Virus record (IMG/VR): IMGVR_UViG_3300045988_090145
Origin: a virus
Direction: 5' to 3' (one strand)
DNA length: 34,183 nucleotides
Each line of letters starts with the position of its first letter. Position 1 is the stretch's first letter. The notes beneath the pieces were generated by a model. That model worked only from the letters and a program-made list of their open reading frames with translations, was not told the DNA's origin and ran no database searches. The position numbers and the translations under genes were made by a program. Shown one piece after another: positions 1 through 34,183 of this stretch.

Positions 1-52
1 TGTGGTGGACAGTCGTAGTTATGGGGAGGCGCACCTCACCAAGTTCCTACGA
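1..52. repeat. 52-bp direct terminal repeat, identical to 34132..34183. Indicates circular closure or terminal redundancy of a complete genome.
   Basis: Bases 1..52 (tgtggtggacagtcgtagttatggggaggcgcacctcaccaagttcctacga) match 34132..34183 exactly. Confidence 0.9.
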
Positions 53-4493: not shown

Positions 4494-4741
4494 GAATATC
4501 AGATATTCCAGATGACGACCTTGTTTTTCTAAGGTCAGATGGAACTCCATCAGAAAATGCTATTTATACGCAAGAAACCAAAGATGGTGAGATTATGTTT
4601 TTTGAATTATTGGGTCAATCAAAGCTTAACGGGATAAAGCTAACTATCGACGGCAAGGAGCCATATCGCAGGTTACTTATTCGTCGAGTTTATCCAGCTA
4701 TCAAAAATCAACCAACAGACAACGAAAGGAAATCTAAATGA
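4490..4741 (+). CDS. Hypothetical protein.
   Basis: 83-aa ORF with ATGA overlap. Confidence 0.45.
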   Translation: MRISDIPDDDLVFLRSDGTPSENAIYTQETKDGEIMFFELLGQSKLNGIKLTIDGKEPYRRLLIRRVYPAIKNQPTDNERKSK

Positions 4742-5079
4742 AAATTATAGCAGAAAATCCAGCTGAAGAAGCCTTGCTGTGGCGCATTAAAGCCTTAAGC
4801 GACGAGTTGGTCAATCAAGATAATCGATCCACTAGTATGCCGATGTGGACGATCCTAGATAATAACAAAGCCGGCAAAGATTATGGCGCGGTTATGTACT
4901 TTACTGGCAAAGCCGCCGAGCAGCATATCAACGAGAATGACCATCATTACAAGAAACCAATGATATGTGTTCGCAGCGCTCACGACAATCGAGAGCTGAA
5001 AGATGTTATTCACCTACTCATTCTAGCTGGCGGCAATGAAATACCAAGTAACCATTATGGAGTTTTGAGAGATGCGTGA
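4738..5079 (+). CDS. Hypothetical protein.
   Basis: 113-aa ORF with ATGA overlap. Confidence 0.5.
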   Translation: MKIIAENPAEEALLWRIKALSDELVNQDNRSTSMPMWTILDNNKAGKDYGAVMYFTGKAAEQHINENDHHYKKPMICVRSAHDNRELKDVIHLLILAGGNEIPSNHYGVLRDA

Positions 5080-6534: not shown

Positions 6535-6558
6535 AAAATTGATAATTCGGAGAAAGAT

Positions 6559-7254
6559 ATGAGTAAAAATACTATAGTAGGCTTTCGGCCGTCAGGTAGA
6601 TTGCATTTAGGGCATTATGTTAGCGTGATAAAGCCAGCAATAGAATACAAGGCAGATATCCTGATAGCTAAACACCATGCGCCACTGTCAGAACCTGAAT
6701 ATGAGGAGCGAGCATTGAGCGTACTCAGAATGTTTAAGTTGGGTAGTCAAGTTGTCGAGCAGAGATTAGATGTCGCTTTACTAGCTAAGCTGCTAGCCGT
6801 AACACCTAGCCACCTACTGAATGCTATGCCGCAGTATAAAGCTAAAGAAAAGACCGCGCTAATGTACATATATCCAGTGATGATGGCTCTAGATATTGCA
6901 GGTTACGATAGAGTAATCGTTGGCGAAGATCAGCGTCCTCATATCGAATTCGCAAGAGATATCCTGCCGCGGGTTGGATTGAAGTGTCCAGATCCAATTT
7001 ATACAAAATCCAAGATTATGGACTTAAGACATCCTGATCGTAAAATGAGTAAGTCTGAGCCAAAGTCGTGTTTATTCCTAGATGATGAAGATTATGAGCG
7101 CAAGATCATGAAGGCGGTCACTGACGTCAAAGGACTATCAAATTTGAGAAACATATACATAGAGTTGGGTGGTCGGTCTGATATTGAAAACATGAGTAAC
7201 TACGATCTAAAGCGAGCGATTGTAGAATTATATAAAAGTCTCAATCTTTACTAA
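6559..7254 (+). CDS. Tryptophanyl-tRNA synthetase homolog, C-terminally truncated (catalytic Rossmann domain only).
   Basis: Class-I aaRS signatures HIGH (RPSGRLHLGHY), KMSKS (exact), and the TrpRS GEDQ-x2-H motif (VIVGEDQRPHIEF). Collinear with bacterial TrpRS (GIQPSG-LTLGNY / VGEDQKQH / KMSKS), but at 231 aa versus ~330 aa it lacks the anticodon-binding domain. Confidence 0.75.
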   Translation: MSKNTIVGFRPSGRLHLGHYVSVIKPAIEYKADILIAKHHAPLSEPEYEERALSVLRMFKLGSQVVEQRLDVALLAKLLAVTPSHLLNAMPQYKAKEKTALMYIYPVMMALDIAGYDRVIVGEDQRPHIEFARDILPRVGLKCPDPIYTKSKIMDLRHPDRKMSKSEPKSCLFLDDEDYERKIMKAVTDVKGLSNLRNIYIELGGRSDIENMSNYDLKRAIVELYKSLNLY

Positions 7255-7311
7255 AAGATAATCCGCCCTTTCAAGACGGATTGTATCTCACAACTAGCGA
7301 CTTTTGAAGAT

Positions 7312-7915: not shown

Positions 7916-9362
7916 AGAAATTGCAGATAACGGCTCCTTTGCCGAGTACTGCATTGCTATAGACCCAAAGTACCAACTGGAGTGGTTTCATGCTGAGATT
8001 GCTAAGGAGTTAGAGCAAGGATATCGTCGGTTGCTTGCAGGTGAAGATGTCCGATTAATGATTTTCATGCCGCCGCGTCACGGCAAAAGCGATACAGCCA
8101 CGCAGAAGTTTCCGTCTTGGGTACTAGGAAAAAGCCCAAACATTCCTATTGTAGTCTCATCTTACTCTGCGGAGCTTGCGTCAGATTTTGGTCAAAAGAC
8201 TAGGGATATAATGCAATCCGCTACTTACAACAAGATGTTTTCTACACGCTTGCGAGCAGACGCTAGAGCAAAAGGTCGCTGGATTACAAAAGAGGGTGGC
8301 GGCTACACCGCCGTTGGTGTTGGCGGTGCATTGACAGGTCGTGGATTCAAAATTGGTATTATCGACGATCCATTCAAGAACCGTGAAGAAGCAGATAGCC
8401 CTGTAATCCGCGAAGCCCGCGACGGCTGGTATAAGTCAACCTTCTCAACACGTGAGGAAGGCAACTCAATGATCGTATTTATTCTTACACGTTGGCACGA
8501 CGACGACCTAGCAGGCCGAGTTCTCAAAGCATCACGAGAAGCTAAGGCTAGAGGTGAAGCATACGATGACTGGAAGATAATCGAATATAAAGCTATCGCT
8601 ACTGAAGATGACGCGCACCGCAAAACTGGTGAGGCTTTATGGCCAGAGAAGTTCTCAATTGAGAAGTTATTAAAAAAACGCGCAGAGATGGGTAGTTATG
8701 AATTCTCAGCACTATATCAGCAGAATCCTATCGATGAAGAGAATCGCAAGTTTAAGCAAGCATGGTACAAATACCGCGAGTTCAGCAATGTCTTACAGCT
8801 TGACACCTACAACGTTATGACGATTGACCCACGAGGTAAAGACGACGTAAAGCAAGGCACTGACTACATTGGTGTAACCCTTAATTTTATCGACCGCGAA
8901 GGCAAATGGAATGTAATATGCTATCGCACAAAACTATCCGCGACTGATCTTGTCGACCTCATGTTTACAAACTGGAAGAGATACAACCTACACAAGATCG
9001 GAATTGAAGACAACCAATTTACTCAAGCCTTGAAGTCTGTTTGGGATGAAGAGATGATGCGCCGCGGAGTTTATCTAGACGTCGAATTATTGAAGCATGG
9101 CGGGCACAGTAAAGCATTGAGGATTGAAGCACTAGTGCCACGATATGAACGCGGAGGAATTTATCATATCAGACATGGCGATGCTAACTTATGTAAAGAC
9201 TTAGAGCTTGAACTGAGTATGTTTCCTAAAGCAACCAATGACGACGCGAGCGACTCTCTAGCATATCAGGTACAACTAGCTCAGCGACCAGAAGATGACG
9301 TAGGATCAGTCTCATACAATCAATCATTAGCAGATAGCGACTTAACAGCAATGTGGAATTAA
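7860..9362 (+). CDS. terL: Terminase large subunit.
   Basis: Walker A-like MPPRHGKSDTATQ, an ATPase region, and a C-terminal nuclease region with acidic motifs. 500 aa. GTG start overlaps terS by 56 nt; aggag lies 9 nt upstream. Confidence 0.8.
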   Translation: MQSKQSNYLKPEQTVGILREIADNGSFAEYCIAIDPKYQLEWFHAEIAKELEQGYRRLLAGEDVRLMIFMPPRHGKSDTATQKFPSWVLGKSPNIPIVVSSYSAELASDFGQKTRDIMQSATYNKMFSTRLRADARAKGRWITKEGGGYTAVGVGGALTGRGFKIGIIDDPFKNREEADSPVIREARDGWYKSTFSTREEGNSMIVFILTRWHDDDLAGRVLKASREAKARGEAYDDWKIIEYKAIATEDDAHRKTGEALWPEKFSIEKLLKKRAEMGSYEFSALYQQNPIDEENRKFKQAWYKYREFSNVLQLDTYNVMTIDPRGKDDVKQGTDYIGVTLNFIDREGKWNVICYRTKLSATDLVDLMFTNWKRYNLHKIGIEDNQFTQALKSVWDEEMMRRGVYLDVELLKHGGHSKALRIEALVPRYERGGIYHIRHGDANLCKDLELELSMFPKATNDDASDSLAYQVQLAQRPEDDVGSVSYNQSLADSDLTAMWN

Positions 9363-9373
9363 TTAGGGGGAAT

Positions 9374-9682
9374 ATGAAAAAATTTGTGCCAGAATTTGGA
9401 AAAGTCAAAGAACAACAGCAGCTAGACGATAAGACGTCTGTAGTAGTTGAAAACAGTTATCAAAATCACACTGTTATAGCAACTAAGCTACATTATGAAG
9501 AACGTTTTCGAGTTGCATCTATGGCAGAAGCACGTGATAAGGTTGATGAGCTAACACTAAGGATTGAAAATGACGACAGTCTTATCAATCCGTCAATCCG
9601 TTATGATGGACGCGCTAGAATATCATACAAAGGATCATTCGATGTTGTGTTTGAATATACCAAAATTAAGCAGGTAAAATGA
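9374..9682 (+). CDS. Hypothetical protein.
   Basis: ATG after aattaggggg RBS. 102 aa. Confidence 0.5.
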   Translation: MKKFVPEFGKVKEQQQLDDKTSVVVENSYQNHTVIATKLHYEERFRVASMAEARDKVDELTLRIENDDSLINPSIRYDGRARISYKGSFDVVFEYTKIKQVK

Positions 9683-9687
9683 TTATT

Positions 9688-9716
9688 TTCACAACTGATT
9701 AAAAATGTGATATAAT
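9688..9716 (+). promoter_or_regulatory. Putative sigma70-type promoter with extended -10 upstream of the portal gene.
   Basis: TTCACA, 17-bp spacer, TATAAT, with TG at -15/-14 (tgtgatataat). Confidence 0.5.
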
Positions 9717-9780
9717 ACAAGCGTAAACCACTGAAACAAACCAGAGTTTACTGAAACAACAGTAATCTTTGGAGTAATCA

Positions 9781-11715
9781 GTGGCTTTCTCTTTTTTAAC
9801 AGAAGAAAATATCCTAGATCTATGTAGCGCCTCAAAAGACTATACAGAAAAACTCACGCAGCCTTTTGAGGAATATTCCCGTCTTGCCAGAAATAAGCCA
9901 CACGCTAAAATACCTAAAGCGTTTCCTAAAACTACAGACGGTACAGCAGCTTCAATCATCATTAAGTCTGCACGTCGTGCCGTGCAGCAACTTCCGACTG
10001 GCGTAGTCTCTACTTCTGACGAATACAGTCCATGGCCAATAATTGCTGAATTTGTTTACTTAGAAAAAATCCTACCTAACGCCAACGCCGAATATGACCT
10101 GATCCATAAAGTGTGGATAACTATTGAAAATGGTGAGTCGTTTGGGTCGCAATGTGTCTTTACGCCAGTAGCTTACAACGATGACGAGCTACTTCCAGAC
10201 TATTTAATCGTTTCATGGCGTGATGTATTTATTCAACCTGGCAAAAGATCTGCTAGTGACAGCGACTATTTATTTGTACGCACGTGGTGGCAAAAGACTG
10301 ACGTAGACAAGCTTATCGATGCCGAAAAAGAACGACGCCGCACTGCCAAAAAAGAGGGCGCACTATACGAACCAACTTGGGACTTGAAGGCGCTAGAAGA
10401 AATAAAAGAAGCTATTGTCGCTAAAGACTCTAAAGACCAGAGCGAAGCAGAGCAACAGTACTCACTTGATCCATCAGGTATTGAAATTATAACTGGTTTT
10501 CAAATTGGTCATAACGCAACCTTCTTTACCTTCAACCCAGCCACTAAAAAGATTGTACGACGTAAGAAAAATAAAGACCCAAGGGCTAAGATACCCTTAA
10601 ACTGGTATTTTTATGACGCCGATGGGGTCAATCCTCTAGGTCGTAGCGTCTTAGAGCTAATTGGTCCTCTACAGAACCTGATCGATAGTGATATGCAGGC
10701 TTATCAATACAACCGCGCCGCCGCATTGCGTCCAACTATTAACGTATACGGCGACGTAAACGAGCGAACCCTTGAATTCAAGCCAAATGGTCTTAACAAA
10801 ATTAAGAACCCGAATGTACGTATTGAAGCGATGTCTGTAGATACTTCAGCAATCCGCGACTATCCAAACTTATATGGCCTGCAGAAGTCTCAAATGCTCA
10901 ACCTAGTCAATAGTCCAGACACTTCAATTAGCGCAGAGGTTGGCAATCCAGGATTCGGTAAAACGCCACAAGCGCTCAAGACTCAACAAGCTCAATTGTC
11001 TATTGACGACAACGCATTACGTAAAGGATTTGAAGCATTCTTTGAGGAGTGGAGCGAAACGGCTATTAACTTGTATTTTGCAGAGCGTGAAGGTGTAGAA
11101 ATAATCCAGCTAGACACAGACACTGCACAGAGATTGCGAGACCTAGAAGCAAAAGGTCATGTACTAGATGGTGTAGTCCTAGATGACGACAATAAGGCAA
11201 CTGTAGACTTCTCAAAAGCTAAGGGCGTACTGAAGTTTAAGATTGACGCGTCAACAACGAAAGTAAACAGCGAAGCGGCACAGCTAGATTCTTTGAAGAC
11301 ATTGATTCAGACGCTAGATTCTAGCCAGTCACTGAACCAAGTAGTACCAGTAGATAAGAAATTAGCTGCATGGAACGCTATTGTTGCTAACTCTGGCATT
11401 GATGGATTGGACGAGCTAAAGGTTACAGAAGAAGAAATGAAAGAAATGCAGGAGGCGCAAACTCAAGCCGCGGTCCCTGCTACCGATGAAACAGCTACAG
11501 CCGAGATGGAACAGCCCGCAGAAGACGAGGCTCAGGTTGCTGAAGTCCCAGTAGAGCCACAAGAAGATATAGAGCCAAGTATTGTAGATGAATTACGACA
11601 GATAGGCACACCAGAAAACCTAATTGCTGAAGTACCAAGTATGATTCAAAAAGGATTTACAGAAGAAGAGATAATCGCATCGATTATGGGAGTTATCCAA
11701 AAGGAGGGTGAATAA
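9781..11715 (+). CDS. Portal protein (putative).
   Basis: 644-aa protein directly after terL with an acidic C-terminal tail. GTG start with ggag RBS. Assignment rests on position and size. Confidence 0.55.
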   Translation: MAFSFLTEENILDLCSASKDYTEKLTQPFEEYSRLARNKPHAKIPKAFPKTTDGTAASIIIKSARRAVQQLPTGVVSTSDEYSPWPIIAEFVYLEKILPNANAEYDLIHKVWITIENGESFGSQCVFTPVAYNDDELLPDYLIVSWRDVFIQPGKRSASDSDYLFVRTWWQKTDVDKLIDAEKERRRTAKKEGALYEPTWDLKALEEIKEAIVAKDSKDQSEAEQQYSLDPSGIEIITGFQIGHNATFFTFNPATKKIVRRKKNKDPRAKIPLNWYFYDADGVNPLGRSVLELIGPLQNLIDSDMQAYQYNRAAALRPTINVYGDVNERTLEFKPNGLNKIKNPNVRIEAMSVDTSAIRDYPNLYGLQKSQMLNLVNSPDTSISAEVGNPGFGKTPQALKTQQAQLSIDDNALRKGFEAFFEEWSETAINLYFAEREGVEIIQLDTDTAQRLRDLEAKGHVLDGVVLDDDNKATVDFSKAKGVLKFKIDASTTKVNSEAAQLDSLKTLIQTLDSSQSLNQVVPVDKKLAAWNAIVANSGIDGLDELKVTEEEMKEMQEAQTQAAVPATDETATAEMEQPAEDEAQVAEVPVEPQEDIEPSIVDELRQIGTPENLIAEVPSMIQKGFTEEEIIASIMGVIQKEGE

Positions 11716-12020
11716 TGGACGAAAATCTATATCCGCGCAGTACAGAATATTACCAGCCAAACGAGGAAGAAGACAAGAGGGTAGAAGAGGCTAAACAAGC
11801 CGAGATCAATGCTATTAAGCAAGATATGAATAAGTTGCAAAAGGTGCTTGACCGTTGGGACGAGCGCATTACCTTCTACAAGTCTACTGACGCTATACCA
11901 GAAGAAATAATTACAGATAAAGAGAAACTAGCTATTTATATATCGGCAAACAAACGTGTTGTAGAGATTTTAAGAGAGGAAAGGAGCTTCTTAGAGAGTG
12001 TAATTGGCCAAGCGGCATAG
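11715..12020 (+). CDS. Hypothetical head-associated protein.
   Basis: 101-aa ORF between the portal and scaffold genes; ATGG overlap. Confidence 0.45.
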   Translation: MDENLYPRSTEYYQPNEEEDKRVEEAKQAEINAIKQDMNKLQKVLDRWDERITFYKSTDAIPEEIITDKEKLAIYISANKRVVEILREERSFLESVIGQAA

Positions 12021-12142
12021 TAAGGTACTCTGCTTTGGTTAGCTATCCTCGCTATTGGCTAACCAAAGGAGCGCATCTCACGCAACCCAGGTTCGTCACC
12101 TGCAATCGACGCTTAAACAATCTAATGAGAAGGAGGGGTGCT

Positions 12143-13054
12143 GTGCCATCAGACGCAGAAAACCAAGAAGTCGTTAATACAGAGGTAGAGCAAGAGTCTA
12201 CCCACGCTGAGTCGACGCCAGCTGAAACACAAAACTCTGAGGCTTCTTCAGAGCCAGAAACCAAAGCAGTTATCTCAGATAGCGGCGAGGTGGTACACGT
12301 CAAAGTCGATAAGTCTAAGGAAGAAAGCAAAGACGCTGATTCTGATGACGAGTCAGACGAAGACAGGAAGCCGAAACGGGGCAAAGAGGCGCGCCGTGAA
12401 CAACTAGAACGCGATTTAGAGGAGGATAACCGAGTCATTCGCGAATTAGTTGCTAAACGGAACGAAACTAGAGCTTATCGCCAGCAATTGGAACTTGACG
12501 CACAGAACGAAAGCACATTTCAACCTGTACAGCCACAGTCACAACAATTGCCAACAATAGATCAGATTATGGAGATGGAGAACCCAGAGACTGGCGACTT
12601 CTTCACAGAATTTGAAGCTAAGGCGGTATTGCAGAACCTACAGTTGCAACAGCGACTAGATAATATGCAACAAGCTCAGGAGCAGGCGGCTTATAAAGCT
12701 CAAGTCGAAGCGTCAAGAAGTGATTTGTCATATAAGGCAGATATGGCACTCAGGGATTTCCCAGAGTTTGATCCAGAATCTGATCAATACGATGAACATC
12801 TTGATAACGCCGTAAACGGGTATCTGCAAAGTGTACTTGTTTACGACCAAAACGGCGATGTCATTGGCTCAAAGACAGATGTATATCAATTATATAAGTC
12901 ATTCCACAAAGACGGTGAAGCACCTAAGCAACGCGCTGTGATTAATGACGCTGGTGATTTCCGTGGAGGCGGCACTAGGATCGTTAAACCATTCGCCAAG
13001 CTTACTACAGAAGAGAAGGAAGAATATCTCCGTCGACAAGGACATGATATTTAA
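12143..13054 (+). CDS. Scaffolding protein (putative).
   Basis: Highly acidic, Gln-rich, predicted coiled-coil protein between portal and capsid. GTG 12143 preceded by aggagggg. The longer track ORF (12035) would need a TTG start. Confidence 0.5.
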   Translation: MPSDAENQEVVNTEVEQESTHAESTPAETQNSEASSEPETKAVISDSGEVVHVKVDKSKEESKDADSDDESDEDRKPKRGKEARREQLERDLEEDNRVIRELVAKRNETRAYRQQLELDAQNESTFQPVQPQSQQLPTIDQIMEMENPETGDFFTEFEAKAVLQNLQLQQRLDNMQQAQEQAAYKAQVEASRSDLSYKADMALRDFPEFDPESDQYDEHLDNAVNGYLQSVLVYDQNGDVIGSKTDVYQLYKSFHKDGEAPKQRAVINDAGDFRGGGTRIVKPFAKLTTEEKEEYLRRQGHDI

Positions 13055-13068
13055 GAAAGGTTAATAAC

Positions 13069-13989
13069 ATGGCAACAAACACAACCGCAACGCTTTCTGC
13101 CGAGATGATCCAATACCTGGAGGAAAAATTCTTGGAGCGAAGCGAAGCCCGCACAATTCACCTAGAAGGTGCTAAAAAGAAAACTCTAGGAAAAAACTCT
13201 GGTACAACGGTTACCTTTACAAAACGATCACCATTTGGCTTGGCTACAACGCCATTGACAGAAGGTGAAAACCCACAAGACGAAGCTATCCGAAGCAACA
13301 AAGTCGTTGCTACTCTACGTGGCTACGGTAAGTGGACTAAAATCTCAAGCATGCTGTACAACACTTCAATCGATCGCGAGATGAAAGAGACGATTGAAAC
13401 TATGGGTCAAAATGCAGGTGAAACAATCGACGCATTGGTCCGTGACGTATTGCACCAGGGTGCGACAGTACAGTTTGCAAATAAGAAAACTGCATTGAAC
13501 GGCATTACTGCTGACGATATCCTGACGGTAGCAGAAATCCGCAAGGCTGTACGTACATTGAAGAAAAACAACGCAATCCCATATGCAGACGGATTCTTCA
13601 TTGGTAAGGTTGGTCCAGATACTGCATACAACATTACTGGTGATACAGCTTGGATTGACGCCCAGAAGTACACTGGCCGTGCAGAACTATACAAGGGTGA
13701 ACTAGGTCGCTTGCATAAAGTCCGCTTTATCGAAGCGTCAAGCAACCAGAAGGAAGAGGCAAGTACAACAACTGTCTACTCAAACTTCATTCACGGTCAA
13801 GAGGCATTCGGTGTTGTCGACTTAGCTGGTAGCGGCCTGAAGAAGATTATCATCAAGCAGTCAGACAAGGGTGATACATCTAACCCACTCAACCAGTTTA
13901 TGACCATTGGTTGGAAGGCGGAGGCATTTGCTTCAGCAGTCCTTGATCCAAAGTGGATTATCAACATTAAGACTGGTGCTAAAGACTAG
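13069..13989 (+). CDS. Major capsid protein (putative).
   Basis: 306-aa protein after the scaffold gene with strong RBS aaaggttaataacATG. Assigned by position and size. Confidence 0.55.
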   Translation: MATNTTATLSAEMIQYLEEKFLERSEARTIHLEGAKKKTLGKNSGTTVTFTKRSPFGLATTPLTEGENPQDEAIRSNKVVATLRGYGKWTKISSMLYNTSIDREMKETIETMGQNAGETIDALVRDVLHQGATVQFANKKTALNGITADDILTVAEIRKAVRTLKKNNAIPYADGFFIGKVGPDTAYNITGDTAWIDAQKYTGRAELYKGELGRLHKVRFIEASSNQKEEASTTTVYSNFIHGQEAFGVVDLAGSGLKKIIIKQSDKGDTSNPLNQFMTIGWKAEAFASAVLDPKWIINIKTGAKD

Positions 13990-14053
13990 TATTTAATAAC
14001 AGTAAGGGGTGGTTAAACACTGCCCCTTACGACCAAAGAAGGGAAACGATAAA

Positions 14054-14368
14054 ATGGCAGAGAAAAAGACAACTGAGCTTACAGCCGAAGAGATTATCGC
14101 CAACGCTAAAAAAGAGGCTGAGAAGATTATCGCCAACGCAAAAGAAACTGCAACTAGCGGTGAAATCGTAAGCCGTAGCGTATCTAAGGAAGATATCATC
14201 GAAGCATACAACAGCGGATTAAGTCATCTAGAGGTTGCTAAGAAATTTTATGGTAATACAAACGACGACAATATGCAGAAGGTTATTGCAGTTATTGAAG
14301 AAGCAGTACCATCAGGGGACGACAAAGACTCAGAGGTTGAAGTCACTGATCCTTGGATTGGAGCTTAA
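14054..14368 (+). CDS. Hypothetical head protein (decoration/connector candidate).
   Basis: ATG 14054 after aagaagggaaacgat. Contains duplicated EEIIANAKKEAEKIIANAKE. 104 aa. Confidence 0.5.
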   Translation: MAEKKTTELTAEEIIANAKKEAEKIIANAKETATSGEIVSRSVSKEDIIEAYNSGLSHLEVAKKFYGNTNDDNMQKVIAVIEEAVPSGDDKDSEVEVTDPWIGA

Positions 14369-14374
14369 TAGATT

Positions 14375-14620
14375 ATGGACTGGACGAGAGAGGGCGATCT
14401 AACTAGATTACATAAGGTGTTTAATGACCCTCTTAAGTCCCGTCACGAGCGCAGATTAGCCCACGACACATTCAACAAGATATTACGCCAGCTAAAAGAT
14501 AAAAAACTCATCGAATTACGTCGTAGGCTAATCCGAGCCAACATTGCTGACGATAATGACGCCGTAGAGAGAATAACTGAAGAGATACACGAATACTCAC
14601 GGCGTGCAGGCTATAGATAG
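14375..14620 (+). CDS. Hypothetical protein.
   Basis: 81-aa basic ORF, last gene before a strong terminator. Confidence 0.45.
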   Translation: MDWTREGDLTRLHKVFNDPLKSRHERRLAHDTFNKILRQLKDKKLIELRRRLIRANIADDNDAVERITEEIHEYSRRAGYR

Positions 14621-14644
14621 CGACTACAGCATAAACATACAGAC

Positions 14645-14680
14645 CATTTCGTTGACGTGAACGAAATGGTTTTTTTGTTT
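14645..14680 (+). terminator. Rho-independent terminator.
   Basis: Perfect 11-bp stem accatttcgtt/aacgaaatggt with a 5-nt loop, followed by ttttttt. Confidence 0.85.
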
Positions 14681-17776: not shown

Positions 17777-20700
17777 ATGGACTTTTTCCAAAGAGTAGGC
17801 AACTTTTTTCAAGGAAAGGGCTGGGTAAGCGATGATGAACGTCGACGTAAAGAGCAACAAGTTCAAGCGCCAGTTCAACCACGCCCTCAGCCATTACAGC
17901 AAGTACAGCAACCTAACATTAACAGACTAAACGGTCTATCTGGTGTAAATACACCTGGGTTGGGTGGTGGTACTAATATATTCAGCCAAGCTCAGCAAAA
18001 AGTAAATCCTAATCCCCTTCAACAGGCTAATCAAGCAACACAACAGCTAAACCAAAATAATCAGCCAAAGCCATTAGTCCCAGAAAAGACTGTCAATGAC
18101 GCCCCTAAGGTACTAACCCCTCAAGGGCAACAAGATTGGGTAAACAAAGAAAACAAGCAGATCCAAATCCAGAATGTCATAAACAATCCTACTCAGGTAC
18201 TTAAAACTCAGGTCCAACAGCAACAACCAAAGCCAGCACCAGTAGCTATTCAACAACCCCAACAGCAGAATAGACCACAAATAGCCCCAAGTTTTGCTAA
18301 TCCTGGAAGAAATCCTTTATTTACCCAAAATCAGGACAGCTTAACCCGCGCCCTAGATATAGCAAAACAAGAGAGTGACAAATATAAGGCGGAGCAGGCA
18401 GCACGCAACGACAAACTAGACAACATTATGCGAGCAAGGGGTGTTAGCGAGCCAGAAATCGCTAAGAACCGCCAAGTACGTATTGACGCAGAGAACAGAG
18501 CTTATTTATCACAAGATAAGGCTAGACGCGATAGCAATATTGCACAGATGGCGGGACTGGCTACTTTACCAACGCGTTCAGTGGTTAGCTTCACTAAAGG
18601 TGCTATTGACGGTGCTGGTCGTACAGTTGGTGATTCAGGCGATAAACTATCTCTAGCTGTCGCAGACGCCATGTACGGCATTACTGGTGATGAATCATAT
18701 GACAAAATACGAAAATATATTGTAGAACAAGGTAGGCAACGTAACGCTCAATACGATCGAGACCTAGGCGTATTTAAGAAGAACGACACAGATGTTGCAA
18801 CAGCTTACGAGGCGGGTCAAAGCGCTCAAAGACTAGCTCAAGATATAGGTACAGGCGTAGCCACTGGCGGTACTATACCCGTAGCACGTCAGTTTGTAGA
18901 AAATGCGGCGGACTTTATTACTAACGCAAACGCTAAAGGTAAGAGCACACGTGAGATGTTGCCATATGCGTATGGTCACGCGGGAGTTCAGGCGTTAATA
19001 GAGAAGGCTGGGCTAGACAAGGTCTTATCGCCTATCGGCAAAAGAGGTCTGACTAAGTTTATAACAGGTGCTATAGCAGAAGGTTCGGAAGAAGCCGCCC
19101 AACAATTGGCAGAGAATGCAATTGCTAAGCATACATACGATCCTAACCGTAAATATGAAGAAGGCGTCCTTAAGAGCGGTCTTATGGGTGCGGTCCTTGG
19201 CGGTCCAGCTGGAATGGCTAATTTTGGTGCTATGCGACAGACTGGCAATCAACCATCGAGTGCAATGACTGCACGAATGAATCAAAATGAAGCTACTGGA
19301 AAACTAGAAAAAGAGGCTATAGCTCAACGTCAAGCACGTCAATCGTCGGACGACACCTCACTCAAACAAGCGGCAGAAGTAAATGTAGCTAATAATCAAA
19401 ACAATCAATTACATCCAATCCAATCAGTAAATGTAGCCCCAGCAGTAGAGAGTACTATACCTAACGCTAGCCCAGCACTAAAACAAGCCGTTACCCAGAA
19501 TATGTCAGATATTCAGCACGGTGATGTAAATGCTGTTGCCACACGCCAACAAACAACAGGAATACTAGAAAACTATCTGATAGAACAAGCTACAAAAGAC
19601 GTACAGAACTTAGTTAGCCCAGAAATGAAGTACAAGCTCAATCCAGAGCATGAAGCCCAGGTGATAGCTTATAACGAGCATATAACACGTTTACGACAAC
19701 GTGAAGAATACTTACGTGGTCAAGGAATGAGCGAAAATGCCCCAGCCATGATTAATCTACGTAAAGCTCAAGAGCAAGCTATATACGCCAGAGATCATAT
19801 CGGTGAAGTAGATGAGAACGGATTGAAGTATAAACTAAGCCCAGAACAAGAAACGTTCTTCAAGGACTCTAAGATCCGAGACGAAAATGGCAATCTTAAG
19901 ACTGTATACCACGGCACAGATGCAAAGTTTGATGTATTCAATCCAAACAATACATCATCTAATAAGTGGGGTGCTGGTAACTATTTAGCGTTTGATGAGA
20001 ACGCAGGCAAGAATTACGGTAAGAACGTAAAAGAGATGTATGCAAATATTACATCTCCAATTAGCGATAAACAAAAGACAATCTCCTTTGATCAGTATGA
20101 TGCCCTACATCGACGGGTAAATAACGGCGAGCCAGCATATCGTGAAGATTATGATATGTACGATAACGACATGGATTTGTTGTGGGATATTACTGACAAT
20201 GGGCAATGGAAAAAATATGCTCAAGATATCAAATACACCACTGGTAAAGATGGTTTGATTATGGATGATATGGCAATTACTTTTAGCCCAAATCAGACCA
20301 AATACACCAACAATCTCAACCCAACAGACAGCCCAGATATGCGGTTTAAGCGTCAGGCAGAGGCTAAAATACAGGAAATTCAACAATCAAAAGAGTTGCT
20401 AGCACGTCACCTACAACTGACAGGTGATGAGAACCTTGTATTCAATGAGTGGCAAAATGAAATGCAAAAAAGAGCATTGGGCTACTACGATCCAAAGACT
20501 GACACCATAAACCTAAACAAGCTTACAGAAGACACCCTAAACCACGAATTAGGACATAAATTACTTACACGTGTAGAAAATAAACAAGACCTATTAAACG
20601 CTATCCGTGAGTCTTATGGAGATGACTATTTAATAAACAAATATGGCAGTCAATATGGAAACGACTTGAACCTACTAGCAGAAGAGCAGCTAGCCGACGG

Positions 20701-23700
20701 ATTCAGTGATTACTACAATGGAAGACTAAATGGTGAAGATAAAGTGCGTCTAGGTACTAGATTAGGTATTCCTCAAAAAGTCTTAGCAATATATGACCGA
20801 ATTACTGAGGCTGTTATGGGGCTTGTTGGTAAACAAGACGCCATTAAACAATTCTACGCCCAAATGGAGACTGGGAAGTTCAGAACCAAACAACAAGTAC
20901 CTGGTGGTGATGGGCAGATTAGGACGATGAGTATTCAGCAAAGTAGAGACGGCACACCTGTTGTTGTGATAGAAAACGATATCCTTGCTGGCGTTCCCGC
21001 TAGAAATCGTGCACGAGTAATAAACGAATATTTCAAAGAAAACCTTCAAGGCAATAACTACGACCTGGACTACGGTAAGGACGGTACGGCTAGAATTAGC
21101 GCTAAGACACGTAATAAATACTTAGACCCGGGGCAGACTGTTGATGATCTGATTGCCAAGGGAAAGATGGCAGGTGAACTACCAGACATACTGCGTATTT
21201 CAAAGAAGGTAGGCTACGCCGCTGATACTAAAAATCATGGGTTCGCCGCCGAAGGATTCGAGTACAGACAAGCCATTGTAAAGATGGGCGAGAGTACATA
21301 TAAGGTCAGATTAAATGTTGGAATTAACAGTAAGGGAAAGCTTCTCTACGCCGTAAATGGCATAGAAAAAATCCCCGAATCCCATTACCGGGATTTAAGT
21401 GGGGATTCTTCTAGCTCTACTATATCAAATCAAAATGAGAATGTCAATACAGACAGCCGTTATCAACATCCTCTTCAAGAAACTATTAACGAAATGGAAG
21501 CCAACCCTAAGCCTAAGATGACTAGGGAATTAAGAGAGGCTATAGACGAGTTTATATATGAGAATATAGACCAGAATCTATTCCTAGAACATAATGACAC
21601 AAATATCCTCGGAAGTCATGGATTGACGTGGAGTATCCCACGCCTGCATGTAGACGACCTACGACACCACCTAGGAAAGGAGTTGGCTGGAGATCTACCG
21701 TCTAACTATAAACGCCGTACTGGTAAGCGAGATATCGATATAGTAGCTCAGGAGATGGGGTATGACGATATCGACGCATTTATCGATGAAATTAAGCGAG
21801 TAGCTGAAGCGCGACGCGCAGAAAGAGAGAGAAAGACCCTATTGGCAGAATGGCGTAGGGATCCAGATGTTATTCAAGAAGCTCAGAAGATGATTGCGGA
21901 GCGACACGCAGAAGAAGCTAAGGTAGAGGCTGAGAAGCAAAAGAAAATAGAAGAAGCGAAAGCGGAAGAAGAACGACGTACTGAAGAGGCTAAGGCAGAA
22001 AAAGAGAGAATTGAAAAGCAGCGGGCACTAGGAGAAATACTAAATAGAGGATTAGATGAAGGTCCAAGGCACAAAATAGCAGATATAGTACATAATGCTA
22101 GTGTAGCTACTGGTATTGATGAAAAAACCGTTGCAAAACAATTTGCTAAACTAGCCGAACAGAAAGGCTATGACATTACTGGAGAAAGGGCGCTACTAAA
22201 CACCAACGCCCGCGCTGGTAGTATGTTAGATGAAAATGGACGATTACGCCCAATAGACGAAATAGCACCAGAAGTAAAAGAAAAGATTAAACTACCTGGA
22301 GCGGAACACGCGGTCCCAGCACCTACAACTACTGCAAATACAGCTACCCACAATACACGACAGATGATTTATAAGGACGAGAAGGGTGCATACCATTCAT
22401 TCTATGAATACAGAAATATCTTTGGTAAATGGCAGCGAACAGGCGCCGAAGCACCAAAAGTAACTTCACCACTACAAAAGAAATTCATAGACGATATTAG
22501 ATCAGACAAGGCAGTCAATGATGAAGCTAAGCGTGCATTTGATGACGGTCTAGCCATTCAGTACATATGGAGAGAGAACTCTAAGGGTGTAAATGCTGAA
22601 CTAGTGAGTGCTTTTGATGGTTATATGCAAACTGGAGATAAAAAAGCATATCGTCCAAGTGATAAGCTAGTTACATTCGATCCAGACAAGCACTATATAG
22701 AATCTGGTAGAGTAGTGGACGCACAAACTGGTCAAATTCTAGGTAACTATATTGAAATGACCCCTGATGGCAACGTAACTATATATGCAGGTAAAAAGAA
22801 GATGAACCTGAATATGCACGATGTTGACTTCAGTAAAATCAAAGAAATGCGCTTTGGTGCAGGTCAAACATGGACTACTGAAGGAATAATAGACCGTATA
22901 ACAGGCTCATTGAGGCGAAGCAATAGCCTTGATTACTTTAAGAAGGGCGGCAATAAAACTAAAGAGGCGTTACTGAATATTATGTCTGAAACACCTCGTC
23001 AAGCTAATGCCGCCGCAGTAAAAGAAGGTAATGCTATCGGTAAACAGATAAAAGATTATCGCAAAAACTTGCTAAAACAAGCCAAAAAGCACGGTCCACT
23101 AAAGCGCCAAATGCTACAAGACGCCGTATATGTAATTGAACCATCACGTCCAAAACGTGGCGAAAAATCACCATCATACGATGAACGCTTGAAAGTATTT
23201 GAAGAAGTTTACGGAAAGAGTGCCGCCGAAGCTCTGGATCAATACAACAGCTTCTTACGTGCTGTATATAAGAACCTGCTAGCCCGCCAAAACGAAAAAA
23301 GGGTAGAGTTAGGTAAAGATCCAATTATGGAGCGTAAAGACTATATTACGCACCTAGGAGAAATGCAGTCTGGCAAGGGAGCTATCGCGGCTATGTATGG
23401 CGGTGCTAAGAACCTTCTGTCTGGCGGAGATGTGGCTATTGAATCTCGTCAATCACTACCAGCTAAATTAGCAGGTCGCACAGGACTATTCAAGCCAAGT
23501 CAAAAGTTTAATCAATTCGCTATGCAACGTGTAGGTGACGTAAAGCCAACAGATCCATTTACGCCACTAATGGAATACAGCAAGATAGCCCTACACAACA
23601 TTCATATGACAGATGCTATTACAATGAACCGCTCGCTGGAAGTAGCAGTGCGCGCAGCTAGCGAAGCACGACAAGAATTTGCAGGTAAGGGCACCAGTGG

Positions 23701-32982: not shown

Positions 32983-33043
32983 AATAGAAAAATTGGGGCG
33001 TAAAGGTTACAAATTAAACCTAAGTCACTCTAAGGAGAGAAGA

Positions 33044-33991
33044 ATGACCGCACCAATTCTATCAATCACAACATCAAGAGCTACTGTAATAAATGAATTA
33101 CAGAAAATAGATGAAGTACTAGACGTAGAATATCAGACAGAGAACATCAGAGAGCTAGCGTTTCAGTTTATCCATTATTCAGCAATAGTCGAAGATATGT
33201 CACCAGCTACAGTAGCTACTAGAGTAGTACGTCTTAAACAATTTGTTAATTTCTGTGACGAATTACACAAAACCAATATAACCGAGCTGTCGCTTAGATG
33301 GCTCGATTTTTATTTTTATGAATACAGAAAAACTCACGCAGCTTCAACTACAAACTCAACAAAACGAGTAATAAAAGCATTCTTCAAATGGTGCAATGAA
33401 CATATGAATCTAGACTGTATTAATTCTGAGCTTATTAAGTCACGTAAGAACGCCAAACCACGACCAAGATATATACAACATCATGTTATACAACTAGTAC
33501 TCAACAGGACGTCAAATAACGCGAAAGAGCGGCATATAAACATGCTAATAGATTTTGCATACGACACTGGATTACGTATTTCAGAGATTGCCAATGTTAG
33601 CTATAGAGATATAGACGGATTGAACTTATACGTAAAGGGTAAAGGCTCTAAGGATCGCACAGTATTCCTAACTAAACGGTTAAAAGACAAGATAGATGAA
33701 TTCGCGACAGACTACAACCGATTATCTGGTCCTCTATTCAACACAAACGATAAAACAGCTAGAGTATGGATCCAACGAGCATTTAAGAAATATGCAGATA
33801 TTCATATAACACCTCATCAATTAAGACATAGTTTTGCAGTGCGTCTACTAATAGCTGGTTGTGATCTTATGACAATACAAAAATTACTTGGCCATCGCGA
33901 TCTATCCACGGTCCAGATATACCTACAAATTAAAGATGATCTGGCAGAGAGTCAGTTCTATAAAGCAATGGATCACGCTCAAGGCTATTGA
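33044..33991 (+). CDS. Tyrosine recombinase (integrase, or Rci-like invertase candidate).
   Basis: RBS aaggagagaag. Catalytic R-H-R-Y signature present: GLRISEIANV, HQLRHSFAVRLL, LLGHRDLSTVQIYLQI. 315 aa. Confidence 0.8.
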   Translation: MTAPILSITTSRATVINELQKIDEVLDVEYQTENIRELAFQFIHYSAIVEDMSPATVATRVVRLKQFVNFCDELHKTNITELSLRWLDFYFYEYRKTHAASTTNSTKRVIKAFFKWCNEHMNLDCINSELIKSRKNAKPRPRYIQHHVIQLVLNRTSNNAKERHINMLIDFAYDTGLRISEIANVSYRDIDGLNLYVKGKGSKDRTVFLTKRLKDKIDEFATDYNRLSGPLFNTNDKTARVWIQRAFKKYADIHITPHQLRHSFAVRLLIAGCDLMTIQKLLGHRDLSTVQIYLQIKDDLAESQFYKAMDHAQGY

Positions 33992-34183
33992 CATATTTAG
34001 TCATTTTTGCTATACTGGGGACAGTTGAGAAAGGCCTACACTTTCCAAGCAACTTTACACCAATAATTTCAAAGGCTCTCTACCAAACATTGAAAATGGC
34101 AGAGAATTTGATTGCTACTACATATAATTGTTGTGGTGGACAGTCGTAGTTATGGGGAGGCGCACCTCACCAAGTTCCTACGA

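What the first reader, a model, noticed from the sequence alone, without database searches (positions are those of the whole stretch)
6559..7254. Phage-encoded minimal tryptophanyl-tRNA-synthetase catalytic domain lacking the anticodon-binding domain
The 231-aa product keeps all class-I signatures in TrpRS arrangement: HIGH as HLGH, the Trp-pocket GEDQ-x2-H, and an exact KMSKS. It aligns collinearly with bacterial TrpRS but ends soon after KMSKS, so the ~80-100 aa C-terminal anticodon-binding domain is missing. Such a protein could still activate Trp or an analogue to the adenylate, but is unlikely to be a standard tRNA-Trp charging enzyme. Possible roles include aminoacyl transfer to a non-tRNA acceptor, a dominant-negative or decoy of host TrpRS, or resistance to a Trp-analogue inhibitor. 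It sits in the early region beside YopX, HNH and a KGG stress-protein gene, which suggests a host-takeover or auxiliary role.
Basis: partly seen in the sequence, partly recalled or inferred. Interest (0 to 1): 0.65.

Follow-up and report, generated by a model that had tools for sequence, protein, structure and literature searches.

The report
Miniature phage tryptophanyl-tRNA synthetase
A temperate phage of oral Saccharibacteria (TM7) carries a conserved, intact 231-residue version of the enzyme that loads tryptophan onto its tRNA, about 30% smaller than the full-length bacterial forms compared here, and it belongs to a phage family of such miniature enzymes that has not been tested experimentally.

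Summary
The ORF at 6559-7254 is real and encodes a 231-aa class Ic synthetase. It has HLGH, GEDQRPH and KMSKS, an intact bacterial-type Trp pocket (H40, M109, D112, V119, V121, Q125), and a confident TrpRS fold (pLDDT 95.5; every listed PDB match is a TrpRS, nearly all bacterial).

It is not a pseudogene. dN/dS is about 0.09 among 25 TM7-phage alleles, and no C-terminal remainder exists in any frame.

Residues matching the E. coli anticodon-reading residues are kept: T225/D226 = T188/D189 and K274 = K218, which is near-invariant in the family. The G73-reading Glu155 is kept as E130. What is lost is the last about 46 residues, mainly the long C-terminal helix, plus about 50 residues of loops.

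The gene belongs to a family with a median length of 237 aa (172 sequences analysed, about 45 clusters at 50% identity). All examined genomic contexts are phage or prophage. In nine large-phage loci the gene sits in or beside tRNA gene arrays, and elsewhere near Tpt1 or a CCA-adding enzyme.

The best reading is a streamlined but genuine tRNA-Trp-charging enzyme. No enzymology exists, and the selective reason in a 34-kb temperate phage is unknown. This is a new variant of a known kind, of moderate interest.

The parts
6549..6552 (+). Shine-Dalgarno-like GGAG, 6 nt upstream of the ATG
   Evidence: Read directly from the sequence.
6559..7254 (+). Coding sequence of the 231-aa miniature TrpRS (stop codon included)
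   Evidence: ORF and translation. PF00579 E = 8.8e-27. AF2 model pLDDT 95.5. Foldseek matches are TrpRS structures, nearly all bacterial, E about 1e-14. dN/dS 0.06-0.15 against orthologues.
6604..6615 (+). HIGH signature, H16-L-G-H19 (ATP binding)
   Evidence: In the family, H16 is present in 166/172 and G18 in 168/172 sequences.
6871..6897 (+). YPVMMALDI (residues 105-113), the specificity helix with M109 and D112. These correspond to B. stearothermophilus M129 and D132; the Asp binds the indole NH.
   Evidence: D112 is present in 172/172, M109 in 170/172 and Y105 in 170/172 family sequences.
6913..6960 (+). V119-I-V121-GEDQRPHIEFARD134. This holds the Trp-pocket valines, the GxDQ motif, H128, E130 (= E. 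coli E155, G73 reader) and R133 (= E. coli R158, contacts the A1 phosphate).
   Evidence: Residue mapping. Roles in E. coli TrpRS from PMC12135181. Q125 is present in 172/172, H128 in 171/172 and E130 in 140/172.
7042..7056 (+). KMSKS loop, residues 162-166
   Evidence: K162 is present in 170/172 and M163 in 171/172.
7111..7128 (+). K185-A-V-T188-D189-V190, the counterpart of the E. coli R222-S227 anticodon-recognition loop
   Evidence: HMMER, MAFFT and hhalign all align AVTD to AVTD. A186 is present in 165/172 and T188 in 142/172. D189 is relaxed in the family (D 61, T 73).
7198..7212 (+). N214-Y-D-L-K218, the counterpart of E. coli Y270-K274 (contacts to C34 and C35)
   Evidence: K218 is present in 167/172 family sequences and the matching Lys in 94/96 canonical ones. 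hhalign pairs it with K274.
7260..7282 (.). Weak hairpin just after the stop codon. It is not statistically distinguishable from shuffled sequence and should be treated as uncertain.
   Evidence: The terminator-like pattern is found only on the minus strand. The RNA fold is -8.2 kcal/mol, z = -1.66.
1..52 (.). Left copy of a 52-bp exact terminal direct repeat (context: att core or circular-genome overlap of the phage that carries the gene)
   Evidence: Identical to 34132-34183. Window position 1 aligns inside the 3' end of a host methyltransferase gene in L001.
34132..34183 (.). Right copy of the 52-bp terminal direct repeat
   Evidence: The integrase gene at 32993-33991 lies next to it.

Best explanation
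The gene encodes a streamlined but complete bacterial-type tryptophanyl-tRNA synthetase of a family so far seen only in phage and prophage contexts.

Proposed mechanism:
1. The protein binds ATP (HLGH, KMSKS) and tryptophan (H40, M109, D112, V119, V121, Q125) and forms Trp-AMP.
2. Probably as a homodimer formed through its retained CP1 segment, it binds tRNA-Trp across the two subunits. E130 reads the discriminator G73. The T188/D189 loop and K218 of the trimmed helical domain read the CCA anticodon.
3. It then transfers Trp to A76.

Compared with cellular enzymes it has lost the long C-terminal helix (E. coli 299-334), the last turns of the preceding helix, and about 50 residues of surface loops.

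In the infected or lysogenic Saccharibacteria cell it would add TrpRS activity independent of the host enzyme. The protein contains no tryptophan itself, so it could still be made when charged tRNA-Trp is scarce.

What is shown: sequence, fold, conservation, purifying selection and genomic association with tRNA genes. What is inferred: catalytic activity, dimerisation, the tRNA substrate and the benefit to the phage.
For: - Homology and fold: PF00579 E = 8.8e-27. The best PDB sequence matches are bacterial TrpRS over query residues 6-215. AF2 pLDDT is 95.5. Foldseek matches are TrpRS structures, nearly all bacterial, with TM 0.7-0.85. hhalign against canonical TrpRS gives probability 100%, E = 1.8e-58, collinear from canonical column 3 to 293.
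- Active-site and Trp-pocket residues are nearly invariant in 172 short family members.
- tRNA-recognition residues defined in the E. coli TrpRS-tRNA co-crystal (PMC12135181) map onto E130, R133, T188, D189 and K218. They are conserved in 81-97% of the family, except the D226 equivalent.
- An active phage TrpRS (AP1) has Leu at the position of query I6, so an aliphatic residue there is compatible with Trp charging (PMC12636597).
- Purifying selection: median dN/dS is 0.09 over 251 pairs of TM7-phage alleles.
- The gene is kept at 96% amino-acid identity in a phage whose portal is only 35% identical.
- Context: the gene lies in or beside tRNA arrays (7-38 tRNAs within about 10 kb) in L049-L052, L057, L058, L062, L064 and L065. 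Six of these arrays include tRNA-Trp(CCA), five of them with G73. It lies directly after a Tpt1/KptA gene in L058/L059 and near a CCA-adding enzyme in L060/L061.
- No trace of the missing C-terminal helix was found in any frame of the window or of any mini-TrpRS locus, while all 16 canonical controls were detected.
- Trp depletion: 0.23% W in mini enzymes (0.09% in the near clade, and 117/172 sequences have none), against 0.52% in canonical-length TrpRS and 1.3% in the phage proteome.
Against: - There is no biochemical evidence for any member.
- The protein scores 97.5 bits against TIGR00233 (trpS equivalog), below its 176.75-bit cutoff.
- In B. stearothermophilus TrpRS, CP1 and the C-terminal domain act together and give about 1e5-fold of the catalytic rate (PMC5272822). 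A truncated domain could therefore be a poor catalyst.
- S227 (which reads A36 in E. coli) is V190 here and varies in the family. The D226 equivalent is Asp in only 61/172 sequences, so anticodon reading may be relaxed.
- Q152 (which stacks on G73) is P127 here.
- The window encodes no tRNA, and the phage does not use more Trp than a small host sample (1.30% vs 1.39%). The benefit to this 34-kb phage is therefore unexplained.
- The host tRNA-Trp and TrpRS of Nanosynbacter could not be retrieved.
Confidence: 0.66

Rival explanations
1. It is an amino-acid-activating enzyme with a non-tRNA acceptor. It would make Trp-AMP and pass Trp to a protein, a small molecule or a modified nucleotide, in the manner of GluQRS/YadB, PoxA or amino-acid:carrier-protein ligases.
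For: It is shorter than every full-length TrpRS in the comparison set. It is below the trpS equivalog cutoff. No tRNA gene lies in the window.
Against: Residues that read G73 and the anticodon in E. coli TrpRS are retained and conserved. Family members sit in or beside tRNA arrays. No conserved partner gene (carrier protein, transferase) accompanies the gene across loci.
Confidence: 0.1
2. It modulates the host TrpRS. Through the retained CP1 dimer interface it would form heterodimers with the host enzyme. This would either poison it (dominant negative) or retarget it, or the protein would act as a decoy for a host factor or toxin.
For: The CP1 segment (query about 70-116) is largely retained. 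TrpRS works as a cross-subunit dimer (PMC12135181).
Against: A decoy or poison would not need an intact Trp pocket, HIGH, KMSKS and the tRNA-reading residues, yet these are all under strong conservation. The family occurs in phages of evidently different hosts (GC content, genome size), where an interface specific to one host enzyme is unlikely to be kept.
Confidence: 0.07
3. It is a functional TrpRS whose selective value is insensitivity to a TrpRS inhibitor or to a host or competitor toxin. Examples are indolmycin- or chuangxinmycin-like compounds from Actinobacteria (the hosts on which Saccharibacteria live) or a defence that targets tRNA-Trp charging. This is a special case of the main explanation.
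For: Auxiliary resistant TrpRS genes are known in actinomycetes (my own knowledge). The protein lacks Trp and is therefore robust to Trp-tRNA depletion. Family members neighbour tRNA-repair genes: Tpt1 and a CCA-adding enzyme.
Against: H40 (= B. stearothermophilus H43, whose H43N change confers indolmycin resistance, from my own knowledge) is near-invariant at 168/172, and D112 is invariant, so the pocket is of the sensitive type. There is no PADLOC hit and no recognisable anti-defence neighbour in the window. No such inhibitor is known from oral Actinomyces or Schaalia.
Confidence: 0.1
4. It is a decaying gene fragment or pseudogene of a captured host trpS.
For: It is about 100 residues shorter than CPR TrpRS (357-362 aa). 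One prophage copy (L001, protein P0005) is an N-terminally deleted fusion.
Against: dN/dS is 0.06-0.15. Intact ORFs of 228-248 aa are found in 29 of 30 related loci. The same architecture is conserved down to 39% identity, with invariant catalytic residues. Tail length is bimodal with almost no intermediates. The AF2 model is compact and confident.
Confidence: 0.01

Closest known systems
Canonical bacterial TrpRS (E. coli P00954, 334 aa; B. stearothermophilus, 328 aa)
   Same: The fold and module order are the same: Rossmann halves, CP1, KMSKS, helical domain. It shares HIGH, GxDQ and KMSKS, the Asp-on-helix recognition of the indole NH that is typical of bacterial TrpRS, the G73-reading Glu, and the AVTD loop and Lys that read the anticodon.
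   Different: It lacks E. coli 289-334 (the C-terminal helix), the 228-240 insert, about 7 residues at 262-268, about 12 residues after helix B, 4 after helix A and about 6 in the KDKSAR loop. It has H-L-G-H where E. coli and B. stearothermophilus have T-I-G-N. Q152 is Pro, S227 is Val, and there is a family-specific near-invariant Cys171. It is below the TIGR00233 cutoff.
Phage TrpRS of 'code-change' modules (Jade phages; AP1 and HF2 TrpRS)
   Same: These are also phage-encoded bacterial-type TrpRS, and they are shown to charge Trp onto phage tRNAs. AP1 also has an aliphatic residue (L6) where E. coli has F7 (PMC12636597; bioRxiv 10.1101/2021.08.26.457843).
   Different: The AP1 residue numbering (I145 and V147 aligning with E. 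coli V144 and V146) shows a full-size N-terminal half, whereas the query equivalents are V119 and V121. Those enzymes sit beside a UCA suppressor tRNA and RF1 in TGA-recoded phages. The window has no tRNA and reads as standard code throughout.
Engineered TrpRS Urzyme and catalytic-domain constructs (Carter laboratory)
   Same: Both are reductions of TrpRS towards a minimal active core. The G73-reading residues lie inside the Urzyme (PMC5272822; PMC12135181).
   Different: The Urzyme (130 aa) removes CP1 and the whole C-terminal domain and is about 1e5-fold slower. The phage protein is natural and under purifying selection, keeps CP1, and keeps roughly half of the C-terminal domain including its anticodon contacts.
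M. jannaschii TyrRS (306 aa), a class Ic enzyme 'missing a major anticodon-binding region'
   Same: It is a naturally short class Ic synthetase that is fully active. Its N-terminal motif (PSG..HLGHY) resembles the query (the Steer and Schimmel 1999 paper is cited in PMC12636597).
   Different: It has a different amino-acid specificity and an archaeal lineage. What it lacks is an appended C-terminal domain, not the terminal helix of the core. It is 75 residues longer than the query.
Auxiliary TrpRS genes of CPR bacteria (TrpRS-A operons)
   Same: These are a second TrpRS gene in or around CPR genomes, discussed in relation to tryptophan limitation (PMC5370408).
   Different: They are archaeal or eukaryotic-type enzymes paired with an A73 tRNA-Trp, they are full length, and they are chromosomal rather than phage-borne.

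Membership tests
Class I aminoacyl-tRNA synthetase, subclass Ic (Pfam PF00579, tRNA-synt_1b) | Significant match to the family profile above the curated cutoff | tested here: met
   94.6 bits against a cutoff of 21.1, E = 8.8e-27.
Class I aminoacyl-tRNA synthetase, subclass Ic (Pfam PF00579, tRNA-synt_1b) | HIGH and KMSKS ATP-binding signatures on a Rossmann fold | tested here: met
   H16-L-G-H19 and K162-M-S-K-S166. The AF2 model shows the alternating strand-helix pattern of the fold. Both motifs are conserved in at least 96% of 172 family members.
Bacterial-type tryptophanyl-tRNA synthetase (TrpRS) | Curated equivalog model TIGR00233 (trpS) at or above its cutoff | tested here: not met
   97.5 bits against a cutoff of 176.75. 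It is the top NCBIfam hit, but the missing roughly 93 residues keep the score low.
Bacterial-type tryptophanyl-tRNA synthetase (TrpRS) | Trp pocket of the bacterial type: Asp on the specificity helix binding the indole NH, plus Met, His and two Val | tested here: met
   D112, M109, H40, V119 and V121 align to B. stearothermophilus D132, M129, H43, V141 and V143. D112 is invariant in 172/172. The role of the Asp is from PMC12135181.
Bacterial-type tryptophanyl-tRNA synthetase (TrpRS) | Recognition of the discriminator G73 by Glu155, with Gln152 stacking (E. coli numbering) | tested here: inconclusive
   The Glu is present (E130; 140/172 in the family). Gln152 is Pro127 here, as it is in two CPR TrpRS. 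Five of six phage tRNA-Trp genes next to family members have G73.
Bacterial-type tryptophanyl-tRNA synthetase (TrpRS) | Anticodon CCA recognition by the loop R222-S227 (T225, D226, S227) and K274 of the C-terminal helical domain | tested here: inconclusive
   T188, D189 and K218 are present and aligned by three methods. The S227 equivalent is Val190. In the family, T is present in 142/172 and K in 167/172, but D in only 61/172. Binding itself was not tested.
Bacterial-type tryptophanyl-tRNA synthetase (TrpRS) | Full architecture including the C-terminal helix (E. coli 299-334) that packs on the aminoacylation domain | tested here: not met
   The query ends at E. coli 288. A profile of the helix finds nothing in six frames of the window or of any mini-TrpRS locus.
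Bacterial-type tryptophanyl-tRNA synthetase (TrpRS) | Homodimer through CP1, with cross-subunit tRNA binding | not testable with these tools
   The CP1 segment is retained with a deletion of about 6-7 residues. No multimer prediction was available.
Bacterial-type tryptophanyl-tRNA synthetase (TrpRS) | Catalysis of Trp activation and tRNA-Trp aminoacylation | not testable with these tools
   This needs enzymology. No paper on a short phage TrpRS was found in the held library.
Tyrosyl-tRNA synthetase (considered as an alternative) | Best match to TyrRS profiles and structures | tested here: not met
   The archaeal-type TyrRS model NF006330 scores 58.9 bits against 97.5 for trpS. All 50 listed Foldseek PDB matches are TrpRS. 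The TrpRS-type M-x-Q-Y/F-K and YP-x-M/L-M-A-x-D motifs are present.
Cyclodipeptide synthases and other class-Ic-like non-synthetase paralogues (considered) | Class Ic-like Rossmann fold of about 230-300 aa that lacks the HIGH and KMSKS ATP-binding motifs | tested here: not met
   Both ATP-binding motifs are present and conserved. The defining feature is stated from my own knowledge of the family.

The most novel reading that the evidence does not exclude
The 205-250-aa phage proteins are fully active, self-sufficient TrpRS enzymes. As far as I know they would be the smallest natural aminoacyl-tRNA synthetases. They would show that the C-terminal helix and about a quarter of the canonical enzyme are dispensable for specific tRNA-Trp charging. 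Phages would deploy them, free of Trp codons themselves, to keep tRNA-Trp charged when the host's own TrpRS or tRNA-Trp pool is shut down by starvation, takeover or a defence system.
Probability: 0.3. Interest if true: 0.7.

Novelty: new variant of a known kind. Interest (0 to 1): 0.5.

Why it matters
TrpRS is, to my knowledge, the smallest class I synthetase and the main experimental model for how synthetases were built up from a minimal core.

- **Evolution.** A natural, widespread version that is about 30% smaller and under purifying selection still carries the residues that read G73 and the anticodon. It would define which parts of the enzyme are dispensable in vivo.
- **Engineering.** It would offer compact parts for orthogonal translation systems and minimal-cell designs.
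- **Phage biology.** Even a 34-kb temperate phage of ultra-small Saccharibacteria invests in a translation enzyme. Large phages keep the same gene inside their tRNA arrays, sometimes together with other shortened synthetase-like genes.

If the enzyme turns out to be just a slightly trimmed, ordinary TrpRS, the finding is a useful annotation rather than a surprise.

Tried and rejected
- **Frameshifted or split remainder.** A profile of the canonical C-terminal segment (E. coli 286-334) was searched against all six-frame ORFs of the window and 66 loci. It found every canonical control and nothing near any mini gene. Rejected.
- **Higher Trp demand of the phage.** Trp is 1.30% of phage proteins against 1.39% in a 1,726-aa host sample. 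No support.
- **Covariation between the G73-reading residue and the discriminator of neighbouring phage tRNA-Trp genes.** Only six pairs were available and no clean pattern emerged. L052 has A73 with Glu retained, and L058 has G73 with Asn. Uninformative.
- **Stop-codon recoding role.** The window has no tRNA and has long standard-code ORFs, including one of 2,843 aa. AP1-type TrpRS is full size. Rejected for this phage.
- **Own promoter or terminator for the gene.** Promoter-like sites are at the chance level, and the hairpin after the stop is not significant (z = -1.66). Left open.
- **Known defence or anti-defence family.** No PADLOC hit.
- **Close cultured-phage relatives.** There is no megablast hit in 50,697 phage records. 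The best tblastn hit is 33% identical, in an uncultured 642-kb phage. BFVD holds no phage counterpart.
- **Single origin of the short form.** A neighbour-joining tree places most short forms in one large group, but a few short-tailed groups fall among canonical sequences. The tree is too crude to decide between one or several losses.
- **Literature.** Four searches for a described short phage TrpRS found none. The held library is incomplete, so prior description cannot be excluded.
Full report
**1. The observation**

The ORF at 6559-7254 (+) exists and encodes 231 residues. A GGAG lies six bases before the ATG.

The match to class Ic synthetases is far beyond chance:
- PF00579 scores E = 8.8e-27.
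- The best PDB sequence matches are bacterial TrpRS, with query 6-215 aligned to B. stearothermophilus 5-260.
- An AlphaFold2 model built on 38 homologues has mean pLDDT 95.5.
- All 50 listed Foldseek PDB matches are TrpRS, nearly all bacterial (E about 1e-14, TM 0.7-0.85 normalised to the query).

The trpS equivalog model TIGR00233 is the best NCBIfam hit but scores 97.5 bits, well under its 176.75 cutoff. Automatic pipelines would therefore not name the protein with confidence. TerS and TerL follow the gene. YopX and an HNH endonuclease lie upstream. No KGG-family hit was found in the ORFs I scanned.

**2. It is a functional gene, not a fragment**

Thirty related loci from Saccharibacteria MAGs and IMG/VR viral contigs carry the gene. 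Twenty-nine have intact ORFs of 228-248 aa. Nei-Gojobori dN/dS against the window allele is 0.06-0.15, with a median of 0.09 over 251 pairs.

A profile of the canonical C-terminal segment finds all 16 full-length TrpRS controls among my loci. It finds nothing in any frame of the window or of any locus carrying a short gene. There is therefore no frameshifted or split remainder.

One prophage (L001) carries a deletion that fuses the N-terminus of the window's ORF-4738 homologue to the C-terminal 72% of the synthetase. This is an isolated decayed copy.

**3. Where the truncation really falls**

Three alignment methods agree: MAFFT with four canonical enzymes, HMMER, and profile-profile hhalign against 23 canonical-length sequences (probability 100%, E = 1.8e-58). 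The protein is collinear with E. coli TrpRS from residue 4 to residue 288 of 334.

The E. coli TrpRS-tRNA-Trp co-crystal paper (PMC12135181) gives these domains:

| Domain | E. coli residues |
|---|---|
| Aminoacylation domain | 1-85, 140-183, 299-334 |
| CP1 | 86-139 |
| Helical C-terminal domain | 184-298 |

That paper shows how the tRNA is read:
- The anticodon is read by the loop R222-S227 (T225, D226, S227), by K274, and by the backbone of Y270/G271.
- G73 is read by E155, with Q152 stacking on it.
- Acceptor-stem phosphates are held by R158, Y100 and R106.

Mapped onto the query:

| E. coli residue | Query residue |
|---|---|
| T225 | T188 |
| D226 | D189 |
| S227 | V190 |
| K274 | K218 |
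| E155 | E130 |
| Q152 | P127 |
| R158 | R133 |

So the anticodon-binding domain is present in trimmed form, as three helices at 179-184, 190-202 and 214-228, and most of its contact residues are kept. The lost parts are the C-terminal helix, the last turns of the preceding helix, and several loops.

Medians for 172 short and 96 canonical-length sequences give the deficit by segment:

| Segment | Deficit (residues) |
|---|---|
| HIGH to the specificity helix | -21 |
| After the GxDQ helix | -8 |
| KMSKS to the conserved Lys | -20 |
| C-terminal tail | -44 |

Median lengths are 237 aa for the short forms and 329 aa for the canonical ones. The tail length after the conserved Lys is bimodal, at 10-25 or 50-65 residues, with almost nothing in between.

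**4. Conservation of function-defining residues**

Counts are out of the 172 short sequences.

| Group | Residues (count) |
|---|---|
| Trp pocket and catalysis | D112 (172), Q125 (172), H128 (171), M163 (171), M109 (170), K162 (170), Y105 (170), H40 (168) |
| tRNA reading | K218 (167), T188 (142), E130 (140) |

The D226 equivalent is relaxed (D 61, T 73, N 17). The S227 equivalent is variable.

The position of E. coli F7 is Ile or Leu in the family. The experimentally active phage AP1 TrpRS also has Leu there (PMC12636597). A Cys at position 171 is a family-specific near-invariant (155/172) of unknown role.

**5. The family and its genomic settings**

The 5.8-billion-protein search returned 120 listed relatives. 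Apart from a few fragments (141-163 aa) they are 205-285 aa long, and they range from 98% down to 39% identity. A profile search of 1.84 billion 50%-identity representatives found that 45 of the 136 representatives I could analyse have the short tail. Scores then merge gradually into canonical TrpRS.

Close relatives (94-100%) occur only in Candidatus Nanosynbacter/Saccharibacteria assemblies and in 30-43-kb oral viral contigs. The window itself is a complete temperate phage:
- It is bounded by a 52-bp exact direct repeat.
- It has an integrase at its right end and an Amidase_5 endolysin.
- In L001 it is integrated at the 3' end of a host methyltransferase gene.

In L006 the synthetase is 96% identical to the window protein, while the portal is 35% and YopX 31% identical. 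The gene is therefore either exchanged among diverged TM7 phages or far more constrained than their structural genes.

Divergent members (37-50%) lie on 78-642-kb phage contigs. There the gene sits in or beside tRNA arrays of 7-38 genes per roughly 20 kb: L049, L050, L051, L052, L057, L058, L062, L064 and the published 642-kb phage LR756502. Six of these arrays contain tRNA-Trp(CCA) with A1-U72. Five of them have G73. Other neighbours are a Tpt1/KptA RNA 2'-phosphotransferase directly upstream (L058/L059) and a CCA-adding enzyme (L060/L061). Four further loci have no tRNA within 10 kb (L053, L054, L060, L063).

This association with tRNA genes and tRNA-maturation or repair genes is the main contextual argument that the family works on tRNA.

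**6. Mechanism proposed**

Shown: fold, motifs, conservation, purifying selection and tRNA-linked context.

Inferred:
- The enzyme activates Trp and, as a CP1-mediated dimer, charges tRNA-Trp. It would use the same G73 and C35/A36 readers as cellular bacterial TrpRS.
- The C-terminal helix is not among the tRNA contacts described in the co-crystal passages I read, so it would be dispensable.
- The enzyme may be slower than cellular TrpRS, because CP1 and the C-terminal domain act cooperatively in the B. stearothermophilus enzyme (PMC5272822).

**7. Why a 34-kb phage keeps it**

This is unresolved. Trp usage of the phage equals that of a small host sample. The window has no tRNA, and there is no sign of recoding.

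One suggestive feature is that the protein has no Trp at all, and the family is Trp-poor:

| Set | Trp content |
|---|---|
| Short family | 0.23% (117/172 have none) |
| Near clade | 0.09% |
| Canonical-length TrpRS | 0.52% |
| Phage proteome | 1.3% |

This fits an enzyme that must be made when charged tRNA-Trp is limiting. The sequences are related, however, so the counts are not independent.

Saccharibacteria depend on their hosts for amino acids (my own knowledge). A published analysis of other CPR bacteria linked auxiliary TrpRS operons to tryptophan limitation (PMC5370408).

**8. Comparison with what is known**

Phage TrpRS genes are known. Jade phages carry them in code-change modules (bioRxiv 10.1101/2021.08.26.457843). 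AP1 and HF2 TrpRS have been shown to charge Trp (PMC12636597). AP1's residue numbering shows a full-size enzyme.

I found no description of the short architecture in four literature searches. BFVD holds no phage counterpart. The best PHROG family is annotated 'unknown function'.

The closest conceptual relatives are the engineered TrpRS Urzyme and catalytic-domain constructs, and the naturally short M. jannaschii TyrRS.

I therefore rate the finding as a new variant of a known kind: a compact clade of bacterial-type TrpRS seen only in phage contexts. Interest is moderate. It would rise if the enzyme proves fully active.

**9.

The observation of motifs, collinearity and shortness is correct. 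The claim that the anticodon-binding domain is absent is not. The unusual roles derived from that claim (non-tRNA acceptor, decoy) are less likely than plain tRNA-Trp charging.

Noticed in passing
window 1-52 and 34132-34183: There is an exact 52-bp direct repeat at the two ends of the window. With the integrase at 32993-33991, and with window position 1 aligning inside the 3' end of a host methyltransferase gene in L001, the window looks like one complete prophage of about 34.1 kb bounded by its att core (or a circular-genome overlap).
   Followed up: partly
L001 10001-10678 (protein P0005): In this 90-kb Saccharibacteria contig, a deletion has fused the N-terminus of the homologue of window ORF 4738-5079 to the C-terminal 72% of the synthetase. 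The HIGH motif is removed. This is a decayed copy in an otherwise similar prophage.
   Followed up: partly
L006 (Saccharibacteria MAG), 8204-14661: The mini-TrpRS is 96% identical to the window protein, but the neighbouring YopX (31%) and portal (35%) are very different. L002 also has an insertion of about 670 bp between the synthetase and TerS. The gene seems to move between, or be unusually conserved among, mosaic TM7 phages.
   Followed up: partly
L063 16274-17029 and 13903-14334: A 125-kb phage-like contig (inferred from its gene content) that carries a mini-TrpRS also encodes a 251-aa protein. Residues 79-217 of that protein match the catalytic core of class II GlyRS (E = 6e-8 to PDB 8t5n). 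The contig also has a 143-aa ORF with a weak DUF5915 hit. This may be a second miniaturised synthetase.
   Followed up: partly
L064 41-1446: A 101-kb phage-like contig with a mini-TrpRS also encodes an 82-aa IF3 C-terminal domain protein and a 329-aa ArgRS-like protein (weak DALR_1 hit; PDB 1iq0 E = 0.003). The ArgRS-like protein is far shorter than the 592-aa solved ArgRS chain it matches (1iq0).
   Followed up: partly
L058 9440-9991, L059 4692-5243, L060 2513-3508: An RNA 2'-phosphotransferase (Tpt1/KptA, PF01885) lies 9 nt upstream of the mini-TrpRS in two contigs. A CCA-adding enzyme (PF01743 and PF12627) and an RlaP nucleotidyltransferase lie a few kb upstream in another. Both are tRNA repair or maturation genes.
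   Followed up: no
L057 7633-7709: ARAGORN calls a tRNA with anticodon TTA (reads the UAA stop) in the same 37-tRNA array that holds a mini-TrpRS, on a 602-kb contig. Several tRNA calls with odd anticodon loops also occur in L049, L050 and L052.
   Followed up: no
L020 1385-2473 and L019 5666-6739: Two full-length CPR TrpRS (362 and 357 aa) have Pro at the position of E. coli Gln152. PMC12135181 describes that residue as strictly conserved in bacterial TrpRS. The TM7-phage enzyme and its near clade share the same GEDQRPHIEF string. This could mean the gene came from a CPR host or was adapted to its tRNA.
   Followed up: partly
window 6559-7254 and the family alignment: The protein contains no tryptophan. 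Of 172 short family members, 117 have none (0.23% W overall), against 0.52% in canonical-length TrpRS and 1.3% in the phage proteome.
   Followed up: yes
window 17777-26308: A single 2,843-aa ORF occupies a quarter of the phage genome between the head and tail genes and the endolysin. It is presumably a tail or host-recognition protein. Its C-terminal part has 47% identity to a segment in L006.
   Followed up: no
window residue C171 (nt 7069-7071): There is a Cys five residues after KMSKS. It is present in 155 of 172 short enzymes but only 29 of 96 canonical ones, and its role is unknown.
   Followed up: no
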